A DNA stretch of 51,245 bases from a bacterium (GCA_030531425.1 JAUNNO010000003.1:1-51245); one strand, 5' to 3'; shown: positions 5,949 to 43,700, counted from the stretch's first letter. Made by a program: numbers and translations. The notes: a model not told the origin generated them from the letters alone.

Positions 5949-6041
5949 ATAGTTATTATATTATATTTGAAATAAAATTGCAAATATGAATTTTTATTTT
6001 TTTCTTGAATATAATTTTAATATAGAAAGGATGAAATAAAT

Positions 6042-6302
6042 ATGGAAACACTTAAAGTAGGAACTAAGTCAAACCCTAATTCAGTAGCTGGAGCACTAGC
6101 TAATGTATTTAGAGAAAAAGGAAGTGTAGAAATACAAGCAATAGGTGCTGGAGCATTAAATCAAGCTATTAAAGCAATTGCTATAGCAAGAGGGTTTGTT
6201 GCTCCTAGTGGGAAAAACTTAGTATGTATACCAGCTTTCACAGATATTGTAATTGATGGTGATGAAAGAACAGCTATAAAATTAATAGTAGAAGCAAAAT
6301 AG
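6042..6302 (+). CDS. spoVS: Stage V sporulation protein S
   Basis: 86 aa, LKVGTKSNPNSVAGALA...AIGAGALNQAIKAIAIARGFVAPSG. Confidence 0.96.
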   Translation: METLKVGTKSNPNSVAGALANVFREKGSVEIQAIGAGALNQAIKAIAIARGFVAPSGKNLVCIPAFTDIVIDGDERTAIKLIVEAK

Positions 6303-6343
6303 CTTCTTTTTTTGATTTTTTCAGTATTTTTATAATTTAAGTA

Positions 6344-6372
6344 TTGACAAAAGAATATATATACTATATAAT
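6344..6372 (+). promoter_or_regulatory. Sigma-A promoter of tRNA-Gly
   Basis: TTGACA-17 bp-TATAAT, perfect consensus. Confidence 0.85.
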
Positions 6373-6390
6373 TTTAATTGTCTACGAATT

Positions 6391-6464
6391 GCGGGTGTAG
6401 TTCAATGGTAGAACTCCAGCCTTCCAAGCTGATAACGTGGGTCCGATTCCCATCACCCGCTCCA
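6391..6464 (+). tRNA. tRNA-Gly(TCC)
   Basis: Acceptor stem GCGGGTG/CACCCGC, D arm GTTC/GAAC, anticodon loop CTTCCAA, encoded CCA. Confidence 0.95.
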
Positions 6465-6466
6465 TT
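6445..6466 (+). repeat. attL core of the inovirus-like prophage
   Basis: GATTCCCATCACCCGCTCCATT is identical to 12195..12216. Extends to 29 bp with one mismatch (6438..6466 vs 12188..12216). Confidence 0.92.
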
Positions 6467-6475
6467 AAAGATTTG

Positions 6476-6507
6476 AAAAGAGTGTCAATGCCAGAGATAC
6501 TCTTTTT
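6476..6507. terminator. Bidirectional terminator between the tRNA and the integrase
   Basis: AAAAGAGTGTC...GATACTCTTTT hairpin with flanking A and T tracts. Confidence 0.65.
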
Positions 6508-7354
6508 AATGCAAATATACATCTACAGTCATAGATACAGTACTATGTCCCATTGACTTAGAAACAACATCAATTGGAGTTTTTTTATGTATCATGCGTG
6601 TTGCATAGCTATGTCTAAATTCATGTTGAGTTATTGGTTTTAAATTTGCTTTATTACAAGCTTTTAATTTATATCTATCAATGGTTGTTGGTGATAATGG
6701 CTTTACTCCACCAAAAATATAATAATCAAAACAATAGCCATATTTATTTATATACATATTTTTTAATATTTTAAACCTAAAAAGAGTTAGTAAACTAATT
6801 TTAATAGTTCTAATACTAGATTGATTTTTTGGAGTGTCAAGTTCTCTTCTTCCTTTTCTTTGAATACTATGATTTATATGTACTAAATTGTTTTCTAAAT
6901 CACTAAATCGTAAAGCCATAGCCTCACTAGGTCTAGTACCATAAAAAAACATAAAATTAAAATATTGTTTAATAATATAATTATCTAAATTATTCCTAAA
7001 TTTCAAGAACTCATTTAAAGTATAAATATTATGTTTTTTATTTTCAATTTTCTTTTTAAATTTAGGAACTTGCAAAACAATATTTTCATTTACAAAATCA
7101 CAATATTTACAATATCTAAAAAATGCACTAAATTCATAATATAAATTTTTATTAAAATTATTACTAAAATTAAATTGTAAGATATTATTTTGCCAGTTAA
7201 TAATATCAAGTTTAGTAATAGAATTTAATTTTCTATTTTTAAAATAAGGTAAAATATGCAAATTAAAATTTTTAACTATTGTTTCAAACCCTTGTTTTTT
7301 ATGCCGACTTGAAGCATATTCTAAATAATTATTGTAAGCTTCTTCAAAGCTCAT
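6506..7354 (-). CDS. Tyrosine recombinase / phage integrase
   Basis: Catalytic set GTRPSEA (R), TPKN (K), HEFRH (HxxR), MGH and VYLH (Y). Confidence 0.93.
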   Translation of the reverse strand: MSFEEAYNNYLEYASSRHKKQGFETIVKNFNLHILPYFKNRKLNSITKLDIINWQNNILQFNFSNNFNKNLYYEFSAFFRYCKYCDFVNENIVLQVPKFKKKIENKKHNIYTLNEFLKFRNNLDNYIIKQYFNFMFFYGTRPSEAMALRFSDLENNLVHINHSIQRKGRRELDTPKNQSSIRTIKISLLTLFRFKILKNMYINKYGYCFDYYIFGGVKPLSPTTIDRYKLKACNKANLKPITQHEFRHSYATRMIHKKTPIDVVSKSMGHSTVSMTVDVYLH

Positions 7355-7471
7355 TTTATCGCCTCCGGGCGAATATTATAACTAAAAATTATTTTTTGTC
7401 AAATCACCACCTAAGTTGATTATAACATAATATTAAAATAAAAAACAATAAAATATAGAAAGGAAATAATA

Positions 7472-7585
7472 ATGAATACGATTTTGGAAGAAATTAAAAA
7501 AATATTTGGAAGAGTTATTGGAAAAATACTATTAGCAATAATAATTATTATTATTTTTGCTATTATATCATCTTGCTCAAAATAA
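7472..7585 (+). CDS. 37-aa single-TM peptide, opposite strand to the other phage genes
   Basis: GAAAGGA RBS. MNTILEEIKKIFGRVIGKILLAIIIIIIFAIISSCSK. Confidence 0.55.
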   Translation: MNTILEEIKKIFGRVIGKILLAIIIIIIFAIISSCSK

Positions 7586-7604
7586 TTAGGACTAATGGTC
7601 TTTT

Positions 7605-8186
7605 TTATTTTGTTATTTCACCTAATTCAATATCTTTTATTTTATGTCTAATACTTGTAATAAAAGTATTAAAAAATATTGTATGACTAGCAGCAACACT
7701 CCACATCTGATTTAAATCATTTTCTAATAAAATTATAAGTAAATCAGAGTATTCTAATATATTATTTGCAATTATAAATTGTTGTATTTCTTTTTTATAT
7801 TTATCTATTTCAGTACGAGTTAATTCATTAACTTGATTAGTATCAAATCCATTAATTAAAATCCTATCCCTATCATCATATTGATATTTTTCAGGATTAT
7901 CTAAATGTATATGATATCTATACATACCTCGCAAGCTTTCAAGTTTAATAGGTATTGTCATATTAAGACTATCACAAAATTCTTTAACATGATTATAAGT
8001 AGTTGGTCCGTCATAATTAAATATAATATGATAATGCGATTTTTTTTCAGTGCCATCTGGATTAATATCATTATCATGTAATGGACTTACAGCTATCTGT
8101 AAGCCGGTGTCTTGAAGTTTATCAAGCCAATCAGTAGGAAGACTTTCGGGATATCCTACACTAGCCCAAATACGACCTTTTTTCAT
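7605..8186 (-). CDS. rep: Rolling-circle replication initiator, pMV158/Rep_2 family (HUH)
   Basis: YPES, SPLHDND, KKSHYHII (HUH), YHIHLDNPEKYQY. GAAAGGAG RBS before ATG 8186. Confidence 0.92.
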   Translation of the reverse strand: MKKGRIWASVGYPESLPTDWLDKLQDTGLQIAVSPLHDNDINPDGTEKKSHYHIIFNYDGPTTYNHVKEFCDSLNMTIPIKLESLRGMYRYHIHLDNPEKYQYDDRDRILINGFDTNQVNELTRTEIDKYKKEIQQFIIANNILEYSDLLIILLENDLNQMWSVAASHTIFFNTFITSIRHKIKDIELGEITK

Positions 8187-8226
8187 AAAAAACTCCTTTC
8201 GATTGTCACAATTCACAATGCACCCA

Positions 8227-8253
8227 TTGGGGGGTGTCGTAGTAACCCCCCAA
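8227..8253 (-). promoter_or_regulatory. Double-strand origin nick hairpin (pMV158/pE194 type)
   Basis: Minus strand TTGGGGGGT-TACTACGAC-ACCCCCCAA. The loop is the conserved TACTACG/AC nick sequence, just upstream of rep. Confidence 0.9.
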
Positions 8254-8291
8254 AAAATGATGTATTGATAGGTGGCATAAATGCCACACTA

Positions 8292-8936
8292 TCAATATTT
8301 TTGAAATTCTTTTGATGGTAATTCTTTATAAGAATAGCTGTCAAATAATTTCCACAATTTAGGGCAATAAATATATTTAGTACCAAAAATAACGAATTGA
8401 TATTGATCTATAAGTTGCTTACTAATTGAATCAATTCCTATTTTTTTAGAAACCTGTTTTCTCTTAACAAAACCAGGAAATATTGATTTATTAACTATAA
8501 ATATTCGGGTAGCTAATTTACGAAGTTTTAAATCAATATCAAAATCTTGAGAAAACATGGCAATATCTACATTATAGTGTCTATGAAATTTATAAAAATA
8601 AGTTTCATCGTGACTAAAAGATTTAAAATTTCTATTATTATAATCAATTCCAGCCTCGTCCATTATTAATAAACAATCTTTAATCATATAAGTGCCAATA
8701 TCACTTTTAACAACTTTATAACTACCTTTTATAGGTACGTTAGAAAGAACAACTCCAAATTTTTTATTTTTTTTACCCTTTTTAAATCTTTTCTTAGCTA
8801 AATAAGCGGCGAAAGTTGTTTTTCCACTTCCAGGTACACCAATATACATATCAAATCTATTTGATTTATGTGAACGCAAATTTCCGATGAAAATCCAAAG
8901 AAAAAAACAACTTCCTAAAAAAATTATAAATTTCAT
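8292..8936 (-). CDS. Zot/pI-like assembly ATPase with N-terminal TM
   Basis: Walker A GVPGSGKT, Walker B LLIMDEAG, HRHYNVDIAMFSQ, hydrophobic N-terminus. Confidence 0.9.
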   Translation of the reverse strand: MKFIIFLGSCFFLWIFIGNLRSHKSNRFDMYIGVPGSGKTTFAAYLAKKRFKKGKKNKKFGVVLSNVPIKGSYKVVKSDIGTYMIKDCLLIMDEAGIDYNNRNFKSFSHDETYFYKFHRHYNVDIAMFSQDFDIDLKLRKLATRIFIVNKSIFPGFVKRKQVSKKIGIDSISKQLIDQYQFVIFGTKYIYCPKLWKLFDSYSYKELPSKEFQKY

Positions 8937-9019
8937 AAAAATTTCTCCTTTTGGTTAGTAACATTAAAATGATAAAGTATTATCATTTTAATACAAAACC
9001 ATTATAATTAAATATTAGC

Positions 9020-9078
9020 GTCAATAATTTTCTCGGCATAAAAGCAACAAGTTGCATTTATTCCAATTGCTTATTGAC
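9020..9078 (-). promoter_or_regulatory. Single-strand origin (ssoA/RSB-like) hairpin
   Basis: TTTATGCCGAGAAAA (RSB-like, 9028-9042) on the nicked strand, inside an imperfect hairpin closed by GTCAATAA/TTATTGAC. Confidence 0.7.
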
Positions 9079-9079
9079 T

Positions 9080-9286
9080 CTATCTAAAAATTAAGTTTTT
9101 ACCTAATAAGACAACAAATTTTACAATTTTTAAAACAATAAATAATATAAATATAAATGCTAAATTTAATATTATAAATCCTATAAATTTAATATCATCG
9201 GTTAAATTTAAAAATCCAAAATTTGTTTGTAAAAATTCAAGATAAGTATTCCAATATATGTAAAATGGTATATTATTTATATTCAT
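9080..9286 (-). CDS. Small single-TM phage protein
   Basis: 68 aa, hydrophobic core with basic C-terminus. Coupled to the upstream ORF by TAATG. Confidence 0.75.
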   Translation of the reverse strand: MNINNIPFYIYWNTYLEFLQTNFGFLNLTDDIKFIGFIILNLAFIFILFIVLKIVKFVVLLGKNLIFR

Positions 9287-9444
9287 TATCTCACAACCTT
9301 TTTAAATATAATGCTAATTGGTATTATAAAAACGCAAAATGTAGTAATAACTAAAAACAAAGTAGTTAAATCATAAAGCCAAGTTAAGGTAATAGGTAAC
9401 TCACCTAATATTCTAACTGACATATTATAAAATGAAATATCCAT
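9286..9444 (-). CDS. Small single-TM phage protein (52 aa, not in ORF track)
   Basis: AAGGAG RBS. MDISFYNMSVRILGELPITLTWLYDLTTLFLVITTFCVFIIPISIIFKKVVR; stop overlaps the next ATG. Confidence 0.75.
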   Translation of the reverse strand: MDISFYNMSVRILGELPITLTWLYDLTTLFLVITTFCVFIIPISIIFKKVVR

Positions 9445-9447
9445 TTT

Positions 9448-9651
9448 TTATTCGTCTCCTTTCTTACTAGAGCCACCAAAAGAAAAATCGCTAAAATTTA
9501 AAAGAAAATATAATATTAAAGCTAGTGTAAAAAAGCCTAATAAGAACATTCCTAATGAAATATCAGGATTTTCGTTTATTTTTAAGTCAAAAATCCAAGA
9601 AAAACATCTTGAAATTATATTAATCCAAAAATTAAATACATTAACCAACAA
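9448..9651 (-). CDS. Small membrane phage protein
   Basis: 67 aa with a TM segment, overlapping the upstream ORF. Confidence 0.7.
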   Translation of the reverse strand: MLVNVFNFWINIISRCFSWIFDLKINENPDISLGMFLLGFFTLALILYFLLNFSDFSFGGSSKKGDE

Positions 9652-9847
9652 TCAAACGCACCACCTTAAAAATTAAAACTATAAGTAAAAATGATATAAA
9701 AGATAAAATAACAATATCAAAAGGGGACGGTATTAAATCAATTAAATTATAAAATAATGAAGGTAAATCAATTATAAATTTAACAAAAGAAGATATACCT
9801 TGATTTAATACCGAAATTAAATCAGCAATAGAGTTTAAAAAATCCAT
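9641..9847 (-). CDS. Small membrane phage protein (pVI-like position)
   Basis: 68 aa, amphipathic then TM segment, directly after the pIII-like gene (TAATG coupling). Confidence 0.72.
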   Translation of the reverse strand: MDFLNSIADLISVLNQGISSFVKFIIDLPSLFYNLIDLIPSPFDIVILSFISFLLIVLIFKVVRLIVG

Positions 9848-11283
9848 TATTTAATCACCAACCTTAATATTAAAATAATAACAAAAATAGTTAAAGCAAA
9901 TAAAATAAACATTCTAATAGGTGTAGGCAAAGCCAAATAAAGTGAAGTGATATTTTGATTTATAAAAATTATAGTATTTCTAATATAAGTAATAAAATTA
10001 TCTATATTAGTAATAGAACCAGATGGAGTTGAAACAGAAAACTCATTTTTATGCGTTTGGTCGTCAAGAATAACACCATCTAAAACTTCAACTGTCCCGT
10101 AAACATCGCCAAAAGAATTATGTTTCAATATATTAACATCATATTCCTTATTAATATAAAAACATATATAAGAAGTAGATAAGTAATCTGATGTTATTGG
10201 TGAATAATGGTCAGTAGGAGTTTCAATTTTTAAATCTCTAAACCAAAAAATAGGATAAAAATAAGAAGAGTTAGAAAAAGCCATCTCAAAAGGATAAAAA
10301 GTATAATTAAAATATCCATTTCTATTATTAATATCTAAATAAGGATAATTTTTCATAGTTAAAAATGCACCTGGATTAGTCCTATCAAAAAATTTAGTTA
10401 TTTCTTCAGCATCATTTAAATAATACCACCAGCCATTAAATGAATTAGGGTCTTCATCAAATATTTGAACTTTATCAATAACGGCAGAATTATAGCGATA
10501 AGTAGACAATCCAGTAACTTTATTTTTAAACCATATAAAATCATAATTATGATAAAAAGGAGAATTAGTAGAAGGGTCAATTGATTGAACTCCTTTTGCT
10601 GTTATACTAAAAGTGTCATTTTTATTAACACATACCTGTTTAAAATTTTGATTACTATCAAATAAGGTATCATAAAATTTATGAAAATTTAATTTTTTAT
10701 CATAATATTGCCTACTAATAGCAGGGAAAGGTGTGTTGGCACTGAGTTTATAATAATCAGAAATATTATGAAATATTACGGGACCATAACCGTCGCCAAC
10801 AGTATTTGTATAATAAGTAACATTAACACCAACAGAATTAAAATCTAAATATAAAAAATTACCTCTATAATTTGGGGCAACATAGAAATTAAAAATACTA
10901 GTAGGATAAGTAATCCAATTGTTGCCACTTAAATAATTAGAAAAAAAATATTGAGCGTTATAATCAGTACCAGAATTATGGCTTGTTTTAAATAAAGAAA
11001 CAAAATCTTCAATATTTGTGTAATCAAAATTTAAATTTAATTGTGTGTTAATATAATTAAAAAGAGAATTAATAGTATTATAATCATTATAATTTGAAGA
11101 AGTAGGTTTTTGAAAATTAGAGTTATATCTTAATTGTGGATAATTAGTATAACTGTATGTATAAGTTGAGGCACTAGCTTTATTTAAAGTAAAACCAGCA
11201 ATAAAACCAACTACAAAAAAAATTAAATGAAATATATATTTAATATAAACATGTAATTTCCTTTCATATTTTAAAATATTCAT
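9847..11283 (-). CDS. Putative adsorption / minor coat protein (pIII-like), 478 aa
   Basis: N-terminal hydrophobic signal ending near ASA, large N/Y/F-rich domain, C-terminal TM. Start moved to 11283 because a separate ORF occupies 11291..11464. Confidence 0.7.
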   Translation of the reverse strand: MNILKYERKLHVYIKYIFHLIFFVVGFIAGFTLNKASASTYTYSYTNYPQLRYNSNFQKPTSSNYNDYNTINSLFNYINTQLNLNFDYTNIEDFVSLFKTSHNSGTDYNAQYFFSNYLSGNNWITYPTSIFNFYVAPNYRGNFLYLDFNSVGVNVTYYTNTVGDGYGPVIFHNISDYYKLSANTPFPAISRQYYDKKLNFHKFYDTLFDSNQNFKQVCVNKNDTFSITAKGVQSIDPSTNSPFYHNYDFIWFKNKVTGLSTYRYNSAVIDKVQIFDEDPNSFNGWWYYLNDAEEITKFFDRTNPGAFLTMKNYPYLDINNRNGYFNYTFYPFEMAFSNSSYFYPIFWFRDLKIETPTDHYSPITSDYLSTSYICFYINKEYDVNILKHNSFGDVYGTVEVLDGVILDDQTHKNEFSVSTPSGSITNIDNFITYIRNTIIFINQNITSLYLALPTPIRMFILFALTIFVIILILRLVIK

Positions 11284-11290
11284 AATTAAC

Positions 11291-11464
11291 CTACTTTCTA
11301 AATAAAAAATTATCAAATTCTTGATTTTTATCACTAAAGAATGTCTTATCAACCATATCATTTAATTTTTTTTGATTAGAGAATTTTATTTTATAATAAA
11401 ATATTAAAAATAAAATTAAAATTAAATTAAAAGATAAAGATAAACCTAATAAAAAATAAATCAT
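11291..11464 (-). CDS. Small N-terminal-TM phage protein (57 aa, not in ORF track)
   Basis: AGGAGA RBS. MIYFLLGLSLSFNLILILFLIFYYKIKFSNQKK...FLFRK. Confidence 0.72.
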   Translation of the reverse strand: MIYFLLGLSLSFNLILILFLIFYYKIKFSNQKKLNDMVDKTFFSDKNQEFDNFLFRK

Positions 11465-11477
11465 TGTATCATCTCCT

Positions 11478-11508
11478 AAATAAAAATAGCAGGATATTGA
11501 GCCTGCTA
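11478..11508 (-). terminator. Intrinsic terminator after the major coat gene
   Basis: TAGCAGG-8 nt-CCTGCTA followed by TTTTTATTT on the minus strand. Confidence 0.75.
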
Positions 11509-11694
11509 TCTGTGGATTACTCTACGTAGTACTGAGAATCCAACGAATGCTAAACTAATACCTATGTATAATAATGCTAATGGATTAGAAATTAGAAAAT
11601 CATAGATAGTACTAGCAGCAGATATTAACCAAGTTAATACTGATGTTGCTGATGTTGTAATTGCACTCATATCATCGGCCATTGTTAAAAACAT
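11506..11694 (-). CDS. Putative major coat protein (pVIII-like), 62 aa
   Basis: Strong GAAAGGAGG RBS. Acidic N-terminus (ADD), amphipathic helix, TM, basic tail LRRVIHR. Followed by a terminator. Confidence 0.78.
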   Translation of the reverse strand: MFLTMADDMSAITTSATSVLTWLISAASTIYDFLISNPLALLYIGISLAFVGFSVLRRVIHR

Positions 11695-11711
11695 AGCCAA
11701 CCCTCCTTTCA

Positions 11712-11879
11712 TTAATAAAAATGAGATTCAGAAGAAACATTCAAAAGTTCAAGTTCGGCTTTATCAAGAAAAACAAGCTTTTCATAAGTGTCTGTAAGTT
11801 TAATTACGACAACTTGATATTCATTACCAGATTTACTTGTACGAGTTTCTAATGTAGCAATAATTTTTTTTGCTTCCAT
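11712..11879 (-). CDS. Putative ssDNA-binding protein (pV-like), 55 aa, not in ORF track
   Basis: AGGAGG RBS. MEAKKIIATLETRTSKSGNEYQVVVIKLTDTYEKLVFL... has a beta-hairpin SKSGNEY pattern and lies upstream of the coat gene. Confidence 0.65.
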   Translation of the reverse strand: MEAKKIIATLETRTSKSGNEYQVVVIKLTDTYEKLVFLDKAELELLNVSSESHFY

Positions 11880-11948
11880 TTTTTACCCTCCTCTCTTTAT
11901 TTAATAATAACACGGAAAAATTTTATCTCCGTAAAATTTAAAAAAAAA

Positions 11949-12161
11949 TTAGCGAAAAGTTGCTAATTTATATTTTTTATTATCAATTTTAACATTAATA
12001 ATATAAGTATTTCTTCTATTATATTCATGTACTAAATCACTAAGTTTATAATTTAGATAATTACAAACTTCATTAAAATTATCTAAATAGCATATAACTT
12101 CATCATTTTCATCATATAATACAAAAGTATTATTTTTAAAAGTTTTAGATTTGAAATACAT
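11949..12161 (-). CDS. Small soluble phage protein, possibly DNA-binding
   Basis: 70 aa, GAAAGGA RBS, first gene inside attR. Confidence 0.6.
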   Translation of the reverse strand: MYFKSKTFKNNTFVLYDENDEVICYLDNFNEVCNYLNYKLSDLVHEYNRRNTYIINVKIDNKKYKLATFR

Positions 12162-12194
12162 TAATTCCTTTCTAGATTATTTATAATTGGGTCA

Positions 12195-12216
12195 GATTCC
12201 CATCACCCGCTCCATT
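12195..12216 (+). repeat. attR core (displaced tRNA-Gly 3' end)
   Basis: Identical to 6445..6466. Followed by terminator CTAGTAC-TTTTT-GTACTAG-T7 at 12227-12252. Confidence 0.92.
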
Positions 12217-12222
12217 TGAGAA

Positions 12223-12584
12223 TTTTCTAGTACTTTTTGTACTAGTTTTTTTATGTTAAAATAATATTTTTTGTATTATTATTTGTAGGTTTATTTGAGA
12301 CTCATTTTATATATAACACTAAAATATTCTCTAACACGTTTCTTCATAGAAGTAATCGTAAATAATTCATTTTCACCAACTATAATAAACAAATTATAAT
12401 TCATATGATAGTCATCATAATGTAATACTAATAAATTATAACCATACTTACTAAATATTATCTTTGTATACTAATAGCATGTATATTTGTTTTATCAAAA
12501 CCTACAATATAACCATAATAATATGTAAGTTCTATTCTATTTGTTTTTGCAAACTTATTTAACTCTTCGATAGTATATGTATTA
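12223..12584 (+). repeat. ~362-bp direct repeat, copy 1
   Basis: Nearly identical to 15707..16068 (offset 3484; I saw about 3 mismatches). Confidence 0.9.
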
Positions 12585-12725
12585 AAGTGTATCTTATTTA
12601 ACTTAATTATAGTTAGTCACCTCACTTCATACAAACAATACCGCATATTTTTAAGAATATCCAGCAAATTATTGAAATTATAATAAAAACCCATAATTAA
12701 TTTTAAATTATGAGTTTTTTTACTA

Positions 12726-14216
12726 TTATTTTTTTAAAACTTTTATATATGCCTGTTCTCCTTTTTCATCACAGACTCTATTATCTCTAGATATAATATG
12801 ATTTACTTCACAATATCTATTTTTGAATTCTTCTTCATGTTTTAAAAGTTCTCTCATATCTTGTATAAACACTTTATAAGTTTGATCTTCGTAAAACATA
12901 TTTTCTGGATTTTGCTCATCATATTTTTGGGATAATCTTTTTATTGTATAATCTAAATATTCTTCTATATTAGTTTCAGGCATTCTCTCATGAGCTACAA
13001 AGAAACTTCTTATAAATACTATTTCAATTCTAGTATTTCTATCTGCTGAAGAAATAAGTTTTCCATATACACTTCTTGGCTCATCTTCTTTTGAAGAACG
13101 ATGATCTTCTATTGCTTCTTTGATTGTTTTCATTTCTTCATCATTAAAAAATTGTTTCATACCTTTATCATTCATAAAATTTCTAGCTGCAATTATGTGA
13201 TGCGTAGCATGATCTTCATATTTTCCCCAATCATGACAAGATGCAATAGCATACATCATATTATCATCTAACCCTAATTTAAAAGTGTCATTTAAAGCAA
13301 AACTTCTTCTAATAACTTCTAAAATGTGAGCAATATTATGACCACCATCATTTTTATCATATTCAGGAAATATATGTTCAGTAATATAATCCTTTAAGTC
13401 TTGTCTAACATTTTTTGTATAATATTCTAATTCATCAATACCATTTTCTTCTAATATCACATTTCTTAATACATCAAATGACTTATTATAATCATCTTTG
13501 ACTTGATCATACACTGCATATAATATCTCATCTAATGACATATTTGGATTATGTCTTTTTACTTCATCAAAAGTTAACTTTAATTTATTGTTTAATCCAT
13601 TTACTTCCATAAATCTTCTCCTAAATTCTTCTTTATTTTCTGCTAATACTGCAATATCTTCTAAAAATTTTTTATAATCTAAATCTTCAAAGTACATTTT
13701 TTCGGTTGCATATCCTTTTTTACCAAATTTATTTATAATATGTTGTCTTGATTCTTCAATTATTTCATCAAGAGTATCATTTGAATTATGTTTAACTCTA
13801 TAAGCATAAGTTCTTTTAAGTGGGACATCTACTAATGTATTTCTATCAGCAGAAGAAACTATCTTTCCATAAATACTTCTTGGCTCTCCTTCTAAACTTG
13901 CTCTATGATCATATACTGCTTCTGACATAATTTTAATTTCATCATTAGTAAAAAATATTTTTAAATTCTTATCAGCGAGTAGCATTTCAGCAGACACTTT
14001 TTCATGATTTTTTGCATCTATATAATGTCCAATATCATGATAAGCGGCTATCGCATAAACCATATTATAATTAATGCCATCAGTTTCCTTAGCAAAATTA
14101 AAACTTCTCTTAATGACATATTTAATATGATCTAAATTATGCCCTAAATCATTATTTTTATAAATAGAAAAAATATTTTTCTCAATATACAGTTGTAATT
14201 CTTCGTTCAATAGCAT
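12726..14216 (-). CDS. Tandem double HD-domain phosphohydrolase
   Basis: GHNLDH..YHDIG..DHRAS..SSADRNT is repeated as GHNIAH..CHDWG..DHRSS..SSADRNT. Confidence 0.85.
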   Translation of the reverse strand: MLLNEELQLYIEKNIFSIYKNNDLGHNLDHIKYVIKRSFNFAKETDGINYNMVYAIAAYHDIGHYIDAKNHEKVSAEMLLADKNLKIFFTNDEIKIMSEAVYDHRASLEGEPRSIYGKIVSSADRNTLVDVPLKRTYAYRVKHNSNDTLDEIIEESRQHIINKFGKKGYATEKMYFEDLDYKKFLEDIAVLAENKEEFRRRFMEVNGLNNKLKLTFDEVKRHNPNMSLDEILYAVYDQVKDDYNKSFDVLRNVILEENGIDELEYYTKNVRQDLKDYITEHIFPEYDKNDGGHNIAHILEVIRRSFALNDTFKLGLDDNMMYAIASCHDWGKYEDHATHHIIAARNFMNDKGMKQFFNDEEMKTIKEAIEDHRSSKEDEPRSVYGKLISSADRNTRIEIVFIRSFFVAHERMPETNIEEYLDYTIKRLSQKYDEQNPENMFYEDQTYKVFIQDMRELLKHEEEFKNRYCEVNHIISRDNRVCDEKGEQAYIKVLKK

Positions 14217-14692
14217 CTTCACACCTCATACTAATTATAGCATATTTTTATATGCTTCTTAATTAAATATAGGATTTTATGTGAATAATTTTTATCTAAT
14301 GTGAGATTTCCATTAAATGTTTTGTGGTTTTGTTGTAGATTTATTGTCAAACTAAATGAAATTCATTTAATTTGAGTAAAACCAAATAATTTAAATATAT
14401 TTTTTTTTAATTTTTTCTTTATTTATTAACTACTATTTTATAAATATGCCTTAAAAATAAACTAATTTTTTGGGCTTTAAACTATTAAAGCCCTTTATTT
14501 TATTTATATATAACATGAAAGGGGTTTGGATAACTTCCCCCAGTCGCTCCATAAGTAAATACGCTCGAGCTTTTCGAGCCTTTTTAATACAACTAACTCA
14601 TTTGGGTTAGTTTTTTTTGTGTTTCGAACTCCTATGTTATCAGCTTGGAAGAAAACAAAAACTACCCTACTTTATAAAGAAAGGATGGAACT

Positions 14693-14960
14693 ATGGTAAA
14701 TATTATTATAGATGACTATCATTAGAAAAATCATTAAGAAAGAAAATTGAATTTATCTTTGTTTTTTATAATACTAAACCAAAGATAATTAATGGAAATA
14801 TTAGAAATATAGAACATACTAATCTATCTTATATTGAACCACATAGAGTTATTATTAAGTGAATAACTTTTCTAGTATTCAATTATTTTAAAATATTATA
14901 TATAAATAATCTATCAAACTCTATTGAGATAAAAGATTTAGAAAATTATATAAAAAAGAT
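14693..14960 (+). pseudogene. Decayed hypothetical gene ending at the MITE insertion
   Basis: GAAAGGA RBS and ATG. Early frameshift and an internal TGA in an otherwise long open frame. Confidence 0.4.
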
Positions 14961-15181
14961 TGTTACTATTCACAGCCGTTTTCAATAAATTATCAAAAAA
15001 TTCAATATTTATAAGGCTTTTCATAGATTTTATAGATTTTTCATAAAAAATTGTTTTTTTTAATGTGGGGATCTATTGTTAATTTTATAGCCATTTTACG
15101 ATAATAGTAATTGAAATAACAACATTTTATATATTAATGTGGGGATTTTAGATTTTACAAATTTGGCTGTGAATAGTAACA
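14961..15181. mobile_element. 221-bp MITE with 17-bp TIRs and 6-bp target duplication
   Basis: TGTTACTATTCACAGCC / GGCTGTGAATAGTAACA, with AAAGAT at 14955-14960 and 15182-15187. Internal repeat TTAATGTGGGGAT occurs twice. Confidence 0.85.
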
Positions 15182-15282
15182 AAAGATTAAATAGTTATTT
15201 AAATGTCAACTTCAAATAATACTACCTACATATAATAATATAAAATGATTGAAAAAAGAAGAAATTTATGTTATATTAAATA

Positions 15283-15396
15283 TATCAAGGAAACTTGCAT
15301 ATAATAAAAAAAGGAACATTCAATATTGCAGTGTTGAGTGTTGCCAATAATCTTTGGTATCACCTAATTCAATGCTGAGTTAGGTGATTTTCTTTT
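15283..15396 (+). ncRNA. Putative type I antitoxin RNA
   Basis: Promoter TTGAAA-17-TATATT with extended TG (15249-15277). Terminator ATCACCTAATTC/GAGTTAGGTGAT plus T tract. Convergent to a hydrophobic peptide gene; ends approximate. Confidence 0.6.
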
Positions 15397-15479
15397 CATA
15401 TCAAAACTATAAATAGTAATAATACTAGTAGGAAGATAAGTATGATTAATGAAAAGATTAATAAATCTTTCTTAAACAT
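15396..15479 (-). CDS. Putative type I toxin, 27-aa hydrophobic peptide
   Basis: MFKKDLLIFSLIILIFLLVLLLFIVLI. AAGGAGG RBS; own promoter TTGATA-17-TATAAT (15570-15542). Confidence 0.7.
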   Translation of the reverse strand: MFKKDLLIFSLIILIFLLVLLLFIVLI

Positions 15480-15706
15480 AATATCGCCTCCTTCCTTTTA
15501 TGGAATTTGGCAATCACCCAACTATTAAATGTTCCATACATATTATACCAAACATATATTCATATATCAATAGTATATGTTTTTTTTATATATTAAATTA
15601 TAGTATTAAAAACAGTATCATCAATATTTAATATAACCATAAACGTTTTACTTTACAAGGATTATTGATACTTTAAACTATATCCATCTATCACTACATT
15701 CGAAAT

Positions 15707-16068
15707 TTTTCTAGTACTTTTTGTTCTAGTTTTTTTGTGTTAAAATAATATTTTTTGTATTATTATTTGTAGGTCTATTTGAGACTCATTTTATATATAA
15801 CACTAAAATATTCTCTAACACGTTTCTTCATAGAAGTAATCGTAAATAATTCATTTTCACCAACTATAATAAACAAATTATAATTCATATGATAGTCATC
15901 ATAATGTAATACTAATAAATTATAACCATACTTACTAAATATTATCTTTGTATACTAATAGCATGTATATTTGTTTTATCAAAACCTACAATATAACCAT
16001 AATAATATGTAAGTTCTATTCTATTTGTTTTTGCAAACTTATTTAACTCTTCGATAGTATATGTATTA
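15707..16068 (+). repeat. ~362-bp direct repeat, copy 2
   Basis: Matches 12223..12584. Confidence 0.9.
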
Positions 16069-16179
16069 TTTAACTTATTTATAGTATTATTCACCTTGCT
16101 TAATGTAAACAATATCACAAGATTTATAAGCACCAATTCCTCCAGTAATTCCTACAACAATATTTAAATTTTCAAACAT
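15790..16179 (-). pseudogene. Heavily decayed coaBC-like (HFCD flavoprotein) remnant
   Basis: GGAAGGAG RBS then MFENLNIVVGITGGIGAYKSCDIV, the CoaBC N-terminal motif, stopping after 30 codons. Downstream extent is uncertain. Confidence 0.55.
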
Positions 16180-43548: not shown

Positions 43549-43557
43549 ATTGATTAT

Positions 43558-43654
43558 CCTCATCTTCCGATATTAATATCGCAGGAATTAGCACCTAACT
43601 TAAATAGGTTGCTGGATTTCATAGGGCCTGATCCCTCCATCACTCTTAATAAGG
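43558..43654 (-). ncRNA. SAM-I (S-box) riboswitch
   Basis: CCTTATTAAGAG..GGAGGGA..GGCCCTATGAA..CAGCAACC..GGTGCTAATTCC..GAAGATGAGG upstream of metK. Confidence 0.95.
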
Positions 43655-43700
43655 TAAATTTTTATTTACAATATAATTTTAATACCACTTATTTAATTTG

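What the first reader, a model, noticed from the sequence alone, without database searches (positions are those of the whole stretch)
6467..12216. Complete 5.75-kb filamentous prophage in a low-GC monoderm host, integrating via its own integrase into tRNA-Gly
Seen: exact att repeats and apparently intact genes in the order small soluble protein, pV-like, pVIII-like with terminator, small TM, pIII-like, four small TM genes, sso, pI/Zot, dso, Rep, integrase. Established: pI/Zot is the inovirus marker. Well-studied inoviruses mostly use host XerCD at dif, though some encode integrases. Inference: an active, probably uncharacterised inovirus of an uncultured Bacilli lineage.
Basis: partly seen in the sequence, partly recalled or inferred. 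Interest (0 to 1): 0.85.

Follow-up and report, generated by a model that had tools for sequence, protein, structure and literature searches.

The report
Small filamentous prophage at tRNA-Gly
This is a complete-looking 5.75-kb filamentous-phage (inovirus) genome inserted into a glycine tRNA gene of a small, low-GC gut-type bacterium; it belongs to a group already known from faecal viromes, and the same genome also holds a stripped-down 2.1-kb relative that may be its parasite.

Summary
Observation confirmed. Window 6467-12216 is a 5,750-bp insertion at the 3' end of tRNA-Gly(TCC). The flanking repeat is 28 of 29 identical, 22 nt exact, so "exact" is slightly overstated.

- The ATPase passes Pfam Zot, and its model best matches the solved Zot N-terminal domain (2R2A).
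- Rep is a pMV158-type RepB with all six active-site residues. Between zot and rep sits a G/C hairpin whose loop holds the exact pMV158 nick 9-mer TACTACGAC, followed by three 7-bp repeats.
- The 62-aa coat-like protein and five small membrane proteins are conserved in related elements.
- Circular 5-7-kb faecal-virome genomes (bajarodino and Dulem viruses) have the same gene order. Their attP carries a tRNA-Gly-like core between the integrase and the first gene.
- A sister species carries a 6.9-kb relative at the same tRNA. Six other relatives have the site empty.

Not shown: activity (no sequencing run was listed), ssDNA, virions. "pV-like" rests on position and weak leads only.

Verdict: a new member of a known kind; thousands of inovirus prophages are already described.

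Extra: a 2.1-kb tRNA-Glu element on another contig keeps its own integrase, the coat gene, the nick hairpin and a conserved structured hairpin, but has no Rep or Zot. It is a candidate satellite.

The parts
6391..6464 (+). tRNA-Gly(TCC), the integration target (attB side of attL); intact
   Evidence: ARAGORN; Rfam tRNA 67 bits
6438..6466 (.). attL repeat (22 nt exact, 6445-6466)
6506..7354 (-). tyrosine integrase, 282 aa, with SAM-like N-terminal domain
   Evidence: PF00589 1.3e-19, PF14659 1.7e-12, phrog_1 6.5e-47. R...HxxR...Y read directly in the sequence. 12/12 TTGACA-16-TATAAT promoter at 7402-7375
7472..7585 (+). 37-aa TM ORF, antisense, between rep and int; status doubtful
   Evidence: no homologue in the 12 related loci searched; no family
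7605..8186 (-). RCR initiator, pMV158 RepB type. 193 aa from the ATG with a Shine-Dalgarno sequence; the ORF is open to 8216
   Evidence: PF01719 1.5e-37, RepB_C 1.6e-5. RepB 3DKX 9.9e-15 with the residues matching H39, D42, H55, H57, Y99 and Y115 conserved (residue numbers from PMC5030251). SD
8203..8223 (-). three tandem 7-bp repeats GTGCATT-GTGAATT-GTGACAA, 3' of the nick hairpin; candidate Rep binding site
   Evidence: read. The same repeats occur in the G010 mini-element. pMV158 has 7-bp proximal repeats to the right of IR-I (PMC1851628)
8229..8251 (-). double-strand origin: hairpin GGGGGGT/ACCCCCC with TACTACGAC in the loop; predicted nick between G8238 and A8237
   Evidence: z = -3.2 for the 75-nt intergenic region. 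Nick 9-mer and loop position as in pMV158. Same hairpin in Dulem virus 59, G337, G000:C43 and G010
8292..8936 (-). pI/Zot-family assembly ATPase, 214 aa, with an N-terminal TM helix
   Evidence: PF05707 26 bits against cut-off 20.3; phrog_25712 1e-15; phrog_197. Model pLDDT 81, best PDB hit 2R2A at E 5e-8. The N-terminal hydrophobic segment is seen in most of the 40 aligned homologues
8945..9082 (-). conserved structured element. Hairpin 1 (9078-9020) has three tiers around invariant GGAATAAA...TTATGCCG; it is followed by a second, perfect hairpin and then TGTTACTAAC. Candidate single-strand origin and/or packaging signal
   Evidence: z = -6.05. The motif is present in 8 distinct elements at different gene positions. 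7 of 7 fold alike, z -2.7 to -4.1. Alignment
9080..9286 (-). 68-aa single-TM protein
   Evidence: 54-67% identical in G018, G022, G014, G337
9286..9444 (-). 52-aa TM protein
9448..9651 (-). 67-aa TM protein
9641..9847 (-). 68-aa TM protein
9847..11283 (-). 478-aa protein from M27 of the 504-aa ORF; signal-like N-terminus ending ...NKASA, and a C-terminal TM anchor; pIII-like by position and topology only
   Evidence: 22-32% identical in related elements. No Pfam family. Atlas gave only a lead at 0.86 to a Hofneiviricota cluster
11291..11464 (-). 57-aa TM protein
11484..11511 (-). terminator-like hairpin plus T-run, overlapping the coat gene stop
11506..11694 (-). 62-aa major-coat-like protein: acidic N-terminus, hydrophobic core, basic C-terminus ...LRRVIHR
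   Evidence: AAAGGAGGG Shine-Dalgarno. 48 homologues of 54-63 aa. Alignment has 18 invariant columns. Hydropathy
11712..11879 (-). 55-aa soluble protein (three strands plus a helix); candidate ssDNA-binding protein, by position
   Evidence: 254 homologues, no Pfam family. Model pLDDT 86.7. Only significant fold match is an uncharacterised Inoviridae sp. protein. Weak gene-V and PC4-like rows
11949..12161 (-). 70-aa protein next to attP, conserved in full-length and mini elements; function unknown (regulator or excision factor is a guess)
12188..12216 (.). attR repeat
   Evidence: The left arm aligns with the attP of circular relatives. The right flank is a hairpin plus T-run, like the tRNA terminators at empty sites

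Best explanation
Window 6467-12216 is an integrated, complete-looking genome of a small temperate filamentous phage (order Tubulavirales, inovirus-like) in a walled, outer-membrane-less, 25%-GC host with a 1.3-Mb genome.

Shown:
- A phage tyrosine integrase gene sits next to attL, at the 3' end of tRNA-Gly.
- The tRNA is kept intact by a 22-nt identical core.
- Free circular relatives carry the matching attP between int and the first gene.

Inferred life cycle:
1. Excision gives a 5.75-kb circle.
2. The RepB-type HUH nuclease binds the 7-bp repeats and nicks TACTACG/AC in the extruded hairpin loop on the coding strand.
3. Rolling-circle synthesis then displaces that strand.
4. The conserved three-tier hairpin element upstream of zot serves on the displaced strand as the complementary-strand origin and/or the packaging signal.
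5. The 55-aa protein may coat the ssDNA.
6. The strand is threaded through the membrane by the N-terminally anchored 214-aa Zot/pI ATPase together with the small membrane proteins.
7. During threading it exchanges its coating for the 62-aa coat protein.
8. The 478-aa membrane-anchored protein caps the filament and binds the receptor.
9. No secretin is needed, because there is no outer membrane.
For: - att repeat and tRNA.
- Families: integrase, Rep_OBD + RepB_C, and Zot above the Pfam cut-off; PHROGs.
- Zot: model pLDDT 81. Its best solved match is 2R2A, the Zot N-terminal domain, at E 5e-8 and TM 0.51-0.57. The next row is RAD51-type at 2.2e-5, and no FtsK or VirB4 chain appears among the rows shown.
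- Rep aligns to pMV158 RepB at 9.9e-15 with all six active-site residues conserved.
- The exact nick 9-mer lies in a hairpin loop, as in pMV158 (PMC1851628 and PMC5030251, passages read).
- 72 of 50,697 phage records encode a relative of the ATPase, all below 60% identity. They are named bajarodino virus (40), Inovirus sp. (20), Dulem virus (11) and Bacteriophage sp. (1).
- Four of these records were inspected. Three are circular genomes of 5.35-7.1 kb that encode Zot, Rep and integrase plus small ORFs and one large ORF. The fourth is linear and unannotated.
- The Dulem genomes came from 0.2-um-filtered faeces after rolling-circle amplification (PMC11281440, passages read).
- The attP of three circular relatives aligns with attR and carries a tRNA-Gly-like core.
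- G337, a sister species, has a 6,881-bp relative between two copies of the same core at tRNA-Gly. Its int, rep and zot are 83%, 87% and 79% identical, and it has the same nick hairpin.
- Six relatives have a single core followed by a terminator hairpin, that is, empty sites.
- All small TM ORFs are conserved in the same order in G018, G022 and G014 and in G337.
- Every gene has a Shine-Dalgarno sequence, and coding density is 88%.
- Host envelope.
Against: - There is no direct evidence of excision, ssDNA or particles. No sequencing run was listed, so junction reads and coverage could not be examined.
- The coat, pIII-like and pV-like roles rest on size, topology, position and conservation. 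No family model reaches significance: phrog_6548 'major coat protein' scores E 0.7, and gene V protein scores only E 0.35 by Foldseek.
- No isolate inovirus matched the ATPase by tblastn at E <= 0.01. Only profile-level and fold-level similarity link it to classical pI.
- The ATPase lacks the C-terminal membrane/periplasmic half of classical pI and has its TM helix at the N-terminus instead.
- The structured element sits at different gene positions in relatives and is absent from the zot-upstream gap in G018, G014 and G337. Its role is therefore uncertain.
- The dso + Rep module is mostly found on small plasmid-like contigs: 73 of 80 metagenome contigs with the hairpin encode Rep, and only 4 of 80 also encode Zot. 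The replication module alone therefore does not mark a virus.
Confidence: 0.85

Rival explanations
1. It is a cryptic or domesticated element: an integrative rolling-circle plasmid, or a defective prophage, that keeps inovirus-like genes but no longer makes particles.
For: The pMV158-type Rep + dso module is typical of small plasmids. 66 of 80 metagenome contigs with the hairpin show Rep and none of the other 11 query proteins. There is no expression or excision evidence. The genome also holds a clearly reduced relative on C43, so decay does occur in this lineage.
Against: All 12 genes are intact and full length compared with their homologues. Both att sites are intact. The gene set matches that of free circular genomes recovered from filtered faeces. 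Shine-Dalgarno sequences and the integrase promoter are preserved.
Confidence: 0.1
2. The element is real, but it is an assembly or binning artefact in this place: a free phage genome mis-joined into a host contig of a metagenome-assembled genome.
For: The genome is a 98-contig draft. Phage GC content (23.8%) is close to the host's (25.1%), so composition cannot tell them apart.
Against: The junctions have the exact structure expected of site-specific integration. attL completes an intact tRNA. attR is followed by a tRNA-type terminator, as in six relatives. The one mismatch lies on the side predicted for attP and attB arms. A sister species shows the same insertion site.
Confidence: 0.03

Closest known systems
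Small circular Inoviridae genomes from animal faecal viromes (bajarodino viruses 33 and 49, PQ006162 and PQ006130; Dulem virus 59, PP511793; porcine 'Inovirus sp.')
   Same: - Size is 5-7 kb.
- All encode Zot, Rep and integrase, small ORFs and one large ORF. Zot-Rep-integrase are adjacent in bajarodino virus 49 and Dulem virus 59.
- Integrase is 65-77% identical at the protein level, up to 81% at the DNA level.
- Rep is 69% identical in Dulem 59, which has the same nick hairpin.
- attP carries a tRNA-Gly-like core at the same place.

   Different: - Zot is at most 41% identical by tblastn, and the structural module is largely unalignable at the DNA level.
- Those records are free circles without a known host. 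This one is integrated in a host genome.
Metagenome- and genome-mined inoviruses of monoderm hosts (Roux et al. 2019, PMC6813254) and Enterocloster inoviruses (PMC10061712)
   Same: - The detection hallmarks are a pI-like ATPase plus 30-90-aa single-TMD proteins and short genes.
- Prophages with direct repeats in a tRNA or next to an integrase are reported: 582 from genomes and 44 from metagenomes.
- Tyrosine recombinases are listed among the integration families.
(passages read; Enterocloster passages)
   Different: I could not place this element in one of their six candidate families, because their models and supplements were not available here. The Enterocloster phages are 6.5-8.5 kb in Clostridia. 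This host is a 1.3-Mb Bacilli-like lineage.
Rolling-circle plasmid pMV158 (RepB, dso)
   Same: - Rep has OBD plus a C-terminal domain, with all metal-binding and catalytic residues conserved.
- The 9-mer TACTACG/AC lies in the loop of a G/C-rich inverted repeat.
- 7-bp direct repeats lie to the 3' side.

   Different: Here the replicon is joined to a virion-assembly module and an integrase. A distal 'bind' locus 84 bp away, and ssoA/ssoU, were not identified.
Ff (M13/fd/f1) and CTXphi-type inoviruses of Gram-negative bacteria
   Same: Gene logic: ssDNA-handling gene, then the major coat gene with a terminator, minor proteins, a large adsorption protein, and the pI ATPase. This is recalled textbook order. 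The ATPase fold matches the Zot N-terminal domain.
   Different: - No secretin (pIV) in the element or the host.
- pI is half the length and is anchored at its N-terminus.
- It integrates with its own tyrosine integrase at a tRNA, not by XerCD at dif (the latter recalled).
- Its Rep is of another family.

Membership tests
Tubulavirales / inovirus-like filamentous phage | pI/Zot-family morphogenesis ATPase | tested here: met
   PF05707 26.0 bits against cut-off 20.3. 104 of the 120 listed homologues carry PF05707. Best solved fold is 2R2A at E 5e-8
Tubulavirales / inovirus-like filamentous phage | several 30-90-aa proteins with one TM segment, short genes, genome of about 4.5-12 kb | tested here: met
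   Six proteins of 52-68 aa have a TM-like segment. Length is 5,750 bp. These criteria are as stated in PMC6813254
Tubulavirales / inovirus-like filamentous phage | major coat protein: small helix with an acidic N-terminus, hydrophobic middle and basic C-terminus | tested here: inconclusive
   The sequence pattern fits and is strongly conserved.
Tubulavirales / inovirus-like filamentous phage | circular ssDNA packaged in a filament and extruded without lysis | not testable with these tools
   No run was listed. Relatives were recovered as circles from filtered, RCA-amplified faecal extracts
pMV158-family rolling-circle replicon | Rep with HUH motif, catalytic Tyr and metal ligands | tested here: met
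   PF01719 1.5e-37. Alignment to 3DKX has the residues matching H39, D42, H55, H57, Y99 and Y115 conserved
pMV158-family rolling-circle replicon | nick sequence TACTACG/AC in the loop of an inverted repeat | tested here: met
   8244-8236 lies within hairpin 8251-8229
pMV158-family rolling-circle replicon | single-strand origin of the ssoA/ssoU type | tested here: inconclusive
   A conserved structured element exists. I had no ssoA/ssoU model or sequence to compare it with
Tyrosine-recombinase, tRNA-targeting temperate element | integrase next to a tRNA whose 3' end is duplicated at the far end | tested here: met
   attP is present in circular relatives. Empty sites
Ff gene V / G5P ssDNA-binding protein (for the 55-aa protein) | OB-like G5P fold or family match | tested here: inconclusive
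   No Pfam hit, alone or across the 34 family members. Foldseek gene V rows have E 0.35-0.9 and TM 0.26-0.29. VIA Z <= 3.5. Atlas 'Putative_G5P' scores 0.77, in the chance range

The most novel reading that the evidence does not exclude
The same genome carries a second element of 2,146 bp on another contig (G000:C43, about 173-2300), integrated at tRNA-Glu. It has its own integrase (63% identical), its own 70-aa-type gene and a small ORF. In the opposite orientation it keeps only three things from the phage: the nick hairpin, the coat gene (96% identical at the protein level) and the conserved three-tier hairpin (60 nt identical). It has no Rep, Zot or adsorption protein.

A 2,373-bp element of the same build sits at tRNA-Ser in a sister species (G010:C126). 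It carries the same three 7-bp repeats as the window phage.

Reading: these are evolved integrative satellites of the filamentous phage. They borrow the helper's Rep and assembly machine, supply their own coat protein and choose their own tRNA site. This would be a monoderm counterpart of the RS1/TLC satellites of CTXphi. It would also mark the three-tier hairpin as the cis-acting packaging or complementary-strand signal.
Probability: 0.35. Interest if true: 0.7.

Novelty: new member of a known kind. Interest (0 to 1): 0.45.

Why it matters
**Host link.** The element ties a clade of small faecal-virome "Inoviridae sp." circles to a host. In the passages read, the lemur study predicted hosts for its faecal inoviruses only by software. 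Here the host is a small-genome, low-GC, walled monoderm lineage, and the integration site is exact.

**A compact model for filament export without an outer membrane.** The element has a 214-aa, N-terminally anchored pI, five small membrane proteins and no secretin.

**Replication module.** It documents an inovirus that uses a pMV158-type origin identical in its nick site to that of a well-studied plasmid. The replication step is therefore directly testable with known biochemistry.

**Satellite candidates.** If real, they would be the first such parasites of filamentous phages that I know of outside Vibrio (recalled knowledge, not searched exhaustively). They would also point to the cis-acting signal needed for packaging.

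Tried and rejected
- **Excision or coverage test.** The look-up of sequencing runs with window 6000-12700 listed no run.
- **The search for related loci in viral contigs.** With the ATPase it found 44 pattern matches but no confirmed relative. The exact dso pattern found nothing in viral contigs.
- **Solved structures by sequence.** Nothing was found for the ATPase at E <= 0.1. Only the fold search found 2R2A.
- **p55 as gene V protein.** No significant Foldseek match in PDB (best E 0.32). VIA-align against 48,161 chains gave Z <= 3.5, with PC4, YdbC and Pur-alpha among many unrelated rows. Atlas gave no named cluster above 0.77. Pfam over 34 members gave nothing relevant. I keep ssDNA binding as a positional guess only.
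- **The large protein.** No family was found; the Atlas rows are leads only, and its own Atlas model is poor (pLDDT 0.29).
- **A promoter in the structured element.** I first read TTGAC...TATAAT there as a promoter. The spacing is 12 nt in the window and in C43 (read), too short for a canonical sigma-70 site, so I dropped that reading.
- **The ssoA CS-6 hexamer.** TAGCGT occurs on the wrong strand in the window. I dropped it as chance.
- **Free circular mini-elements.** blastn of the C43 element against phages hit only the integrases of five full-length records. Among 80 metagenome contigs with the nick hairpin, none had the coat gene. The satellite idea therefore has no support from free forms.
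- **Right-flank synteny.** The HD-domain gene right of attR lies on other contigs in relatives. A classical 'same two neighbours, no insert' empty site was not found. Only the tRNA plus its terminator is comparable.
- **Host name.** Cluster look-up of housekeeping proteins gave no taxon.
- **Supplements.** Those of PMC6813254 and PMC11281440 (family models, host tables) were not seen. They may already list close relatives or place this clade.
- **Literature search.** No paper was found for 'bajarodino'. 'inovirus' + 'pMV158' returned 5 papers. The one I read (passages of PMC6668415) does not name an inovirus in the pMV158-like Rep cluster in those passages.

Full report
**1. What is there**

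- The window is 24-25% G+C and is one contig of a 1.32-Mb, 98-contig genome scored 94% complete.
- ARAGORN finds a single tRNA, tRNA-Gly(TCC), at 6391-6464. Rfam agrees.
- The last 27 nt of the tRNA plus two more bases (6438-6466) recur at 12188-12216.
- The two copies are 28 of 29 identical, with 22 nt exact.
- The 20-nt core has no other copy in the window at up to three mismatches, against 0 expected in 100 shuffles. It has no other exact copy in the whole genome.
- The single mismatch (C6444 against A12194) lies on the left of the exact stretch. That is the side expected if attL keeps the attB left arm and attR keeps the attP left arm.
- Between the repeats lie 5,750 bp with 12 genes, all on the minus strand. 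Each has a Shine-Dalgarno sequence, several have overlapping stop and start codons, and coding density is 88%.

**2. The genes**

*Integrase and Rep*
- Integrase (6506-7354): PF00589 1.3e-19, PF14659 1.7e-12, phrog_1 6.5e-47. A 12/12 sigma-70-type promoter lies just upstream.
- Rep (7605-8186, from the ATG with a Shine-Dalgarno sequence): PF01719 1.5e-37 plus RepB_C.
- Rep aligns to the crystal-structure sequence of pMV158 RepB at 9.9e-15.
- The residues that PMC5030251 names as metal ligands and catalytic or supporting tyrosines (H39, D42, H55, H57, Y99, Y115; passages read) are all conserved in that alignment.

*ATPase*
- The ATPase (8292-8936, 214 aa) passes the Pfam Zot threshold (26.0 against 20.3 bits). 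It also hits phrog_25712 (1e-15) and phrog_197, 'Zot-like'.
- It has 354 relatives in the large protein collection. Of the 120 listed, 104 carry PF05707. The few that have a name are called Bacilli, Firmicutes or Oscillospiraceae MAG proteins.
- A model built on 40 homologues (pLDDT 81, pTM 0.71) best matches 2R2A, the N-terminal domain of Neisseria Zot (E 5e-8, TM 0.51-0.57).
- The next rows are RAD51/RadA-type ATPases from 2.2e-5.
- Unlike classical pI, the protein has its one hydrophobic helix at the N-terminus, and it ends right after the ATPase domain. The N-terminal hydrophobic segment is seen in most of the 40 aligned homologues.

*Structural-type genes*
- The 62-aa protein (11506-11694) has a strong Shine-Dalgarno sequence at Met7 of the longer ORF.
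- It has 48 homologues of 54-63 aa.
- It shows an acidic N-terminus, a hydrophobic core and an invariant basic end ...RVIHR.
- A terminator-like hairpin overlaps its stop codon.
- Five further proteins of 52-68 aa each have one TM-like segment.
- The 478-aa protein has a signal-like start and a C-terminal anchor.
- All of these are conserved, in the same order, in related elements of four sister species. The small TM proteins are 35-67% identical and the large protein 22-32%.

*The 55-aa and 70-aa proteins*
- The 55-aa protein has 254 homologues with an almost invariant core. Its model is three strands plus a helix (pLDDT 86.7).
- Its only significant fold match is an uncharacterised protein of 'Inoviridae sp. 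ctDDr4' (E 8.6e-5).
- Gene V protein, PC4-like and G5P signals are all in the chance range. 'pV-like' is therefore a positional inference.
- The 70-aa protein next to attP has no family.

**3. Origins**

- On the coding strand between zot and rep the sequence reads GGGGGGT-TACTACGAC-ACCCCCC (8251-8229). It folds as a hairpin with the 9-mer in the loop.
- PMC1851628 and PMC5030251 (passages read) give 5'-TACTACG/AC-3', in the apical loop of IR-I, as the pMV158 RepB nick site. They also describe 7-bp direct repeats to its right.
- Here three 7-bp repeats (GTGCATT, GTGAATT, GTGACAA; 8223-8203) follow the hairpin.
- The same hairpin precedes rep in Dulem virus 59 and in the G337 prophage.
- The hairpin is not virus-specific. 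Of 80 metagenome contigs fetched with it (out of at least 117 matches), 73 encode a Rep homologue and only 4 also encode a Zot homologue. Several look like circles or repeats of about 2.75 kb.
- That fits the published view that inoviruses swap replication modules with plasmids (PMC6668415, passages read).
- The 143-nt gap upstream of zot folds far better than shuffles (z = -6.05).
- Its first hairpin has three tiers around the invariant motif GGAATAAA...TTATGCCG. The motif occurs in eight distinct elements, at different gene positions.
- Seven of seven folded alone adopt the same three-tier shape (z -2.7 to -4.1), with different apical stems. In MT839862 the basal stem differs as well.
- On the alignment itself only 1 of 14 consensus pairs shows a double change, because the paired core is invariant and the apical stems do not align.
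- I read it as a cis-acting ssDNA element, either the complementary-strand origin or the packaging signal. Which of the two is not shown.

**4. Evidence from elsewhere**

- tblastn of the ATPase finds 72 of 50,697 phage records, all below 60% identity and all metagenomic.
- Four records were inspected. Three are circular genomes of 5.35-7.1 kb that encode Zot, Rep and integrase, small ORFs and one large ORF. The fourth is linear and unannotated.
- Their integrases are 65-77% identical at the protein level.
- In three of them the gap between int and the next gene aligns with the window's attR and carries a tRNA-Gly-3'-like core. That is the attP expected if the window element arose by attP x attB recombination.
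- The Dulem genomes came from 0.45/0.2-um-filtered faecal supernatant, viral nucleic-acid extraction and rolling-circle amplification (PMC11281440, passages read).
- Within the host genus, G337 has a 6,881-bp relative between two copies of the same core at tRNA-Gly.
- Six other species have one core followed directly by a hairpin and T-run, like the sequence right of attR.
- A coat homologue is present in 8 of 27 genomes of the genus.
- A Zot homologue is present in 8 of 301 genomes sampled across the order, G000 included. Distribution is patchy, as for a mobile element.
- The host genome gave no Omp85 and no secretin match but five transpeptidase matches, so a walled monoderm is the best reading.

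**5. Comparison with what is known**

- Roux et al. (PMC6813254; passages and section 9 read) already reported about 10,000 inovirus-like sequences.
- These include 582 genome-borne and 44 metagenome-borne prophages with direct repeats in a tRNA or next to an integrase.
- They also report tyrosine recombinases among the integration families, and candidate families tied to monoderm hosts.
- The element meets their stated hallmarks. It is therefore a new member of a known kind.
- What it adds: a host and an exact att site for a clade so far seen as free circles; a fully readable pMV158-type origin; and a very reduced, N-terminally anchored pI.
- The Pfam name 'Zot' says nothing here about toxicity. 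From recall, the enterotoxic activity of V. cholerae Zot maps outside the ATPase domain.

**6. A second, reduced element**

- Contig C43 of the same genome begins with a 2,146-bp element bounded by a 29-of-32 repeat of the 3' end of tRNA-Glu.
- In one direction it has an integrase (63% identical), a 70-aa-type gene and a 57-aa ORF.
- In the other direction it has:
  - the nick hairpin, with 34 nt identical to the window;
  - the coat gene, 96% identical at the protein level;
  - hairpin 1 of the structured element, with 60 nt identical.
- It has no Rep, no Zot and no large protein. Its 7-bp repeats differ from the window's (GTGACGC, GTGACGT, GTGACAA).
- G010:C126 holds a 2,373-bp element of the same build at tRNA-Ser, flanked by host genes on both sides. 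It carries 7-bp repeats identical to the window's.
- No Zot was found in G010, which is 69% complete.
- Two elements of the same reduced build at different tRNAs look more like an evolved satellite than like random decay. However, no free circular form was found, and there are only two examples.

**7. Verdict**

- Activity is untested.
- Novelty is modest for the prophage itself and higher for the satellite reading.

Noticed in passing
G000:C43 about 149-2326 (locus L006): A 2,146-bp element at tRNA-Glu(TTC). It has its own integrase, a 70-aa-type gene and a 57-aa ORF. In inverted orientation it has the phage nick hairpin, the coat gene (96% aa identity) and the conserved three-tier hairpin. 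It has no Rep, Zot or large protein. Candidate satellite, or a defective relative.
   Followed up: partly
G010:C126 3648-6049 (locus L025): A 2,373-bp element of the same reduced build at tRNA-Ser(GCT) in a sister species. Its nick hairpin and three 7-bp repeats are identical to the window phage's. No Zot was found in that 69%-complete genome.
   Followed up: partly
window 12217-12640 and 15707-16114: A direct repeat of about 0.4 kb (94% over 418 nt, with about 330 nt identical). It starts at the outer edge of attR and brackets the HD-domain gene (12726-14222) and an ORF-poor stretch (14223-15700, no Rfam hit). A weaker third copy lies on C86. The sequence upstream of copy 2 faintly resembles the tRNA 3' end. 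Unexplained; possibly the trace of an older insertion at the same tRNA.
   Followed up: partly
window 7472-7585 (+): A 37-aa, very hydrophobic ORF with a good Shine-Dalgarno sequence, antisense between rep and int. It is not conserved in the related loci searched. It could be spurious, or a small membrane peptide.
   Followed up: partly
G337:C51 (locus L061 6416-13313): A 6,881-bp prophage of the same type between two copies of the same tRNA-Gly core in another species of the genus. The conserved three-tier hairpin sits after the coat gene instead of before zot.
   Followed up: yes
metagenome loci L062-L141: The same G/C hairpin with TACTACGAC occurs on many small contigs that encode only a RepB homologue. 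Five contigs show two copies 2.7-2.8 kb apart. This suggests a pool of about 2.75-kb rolling-circle plasmids that share the phage's origin type.
   Followed up: partly
window 8292-8936 and alignment A3: This clade's pI/Zot ATPase is only about 210 aa, and its single TM helix is at the N-terminus instead of after the ATPase domain. This is an inverted, minimal architecture compared with classical pI.
   Followed up: partly
window 43557-43655 (-): A SAM riboswitch (Rfam RF00162, 81 bits). Ordinary.
   Followed up: no
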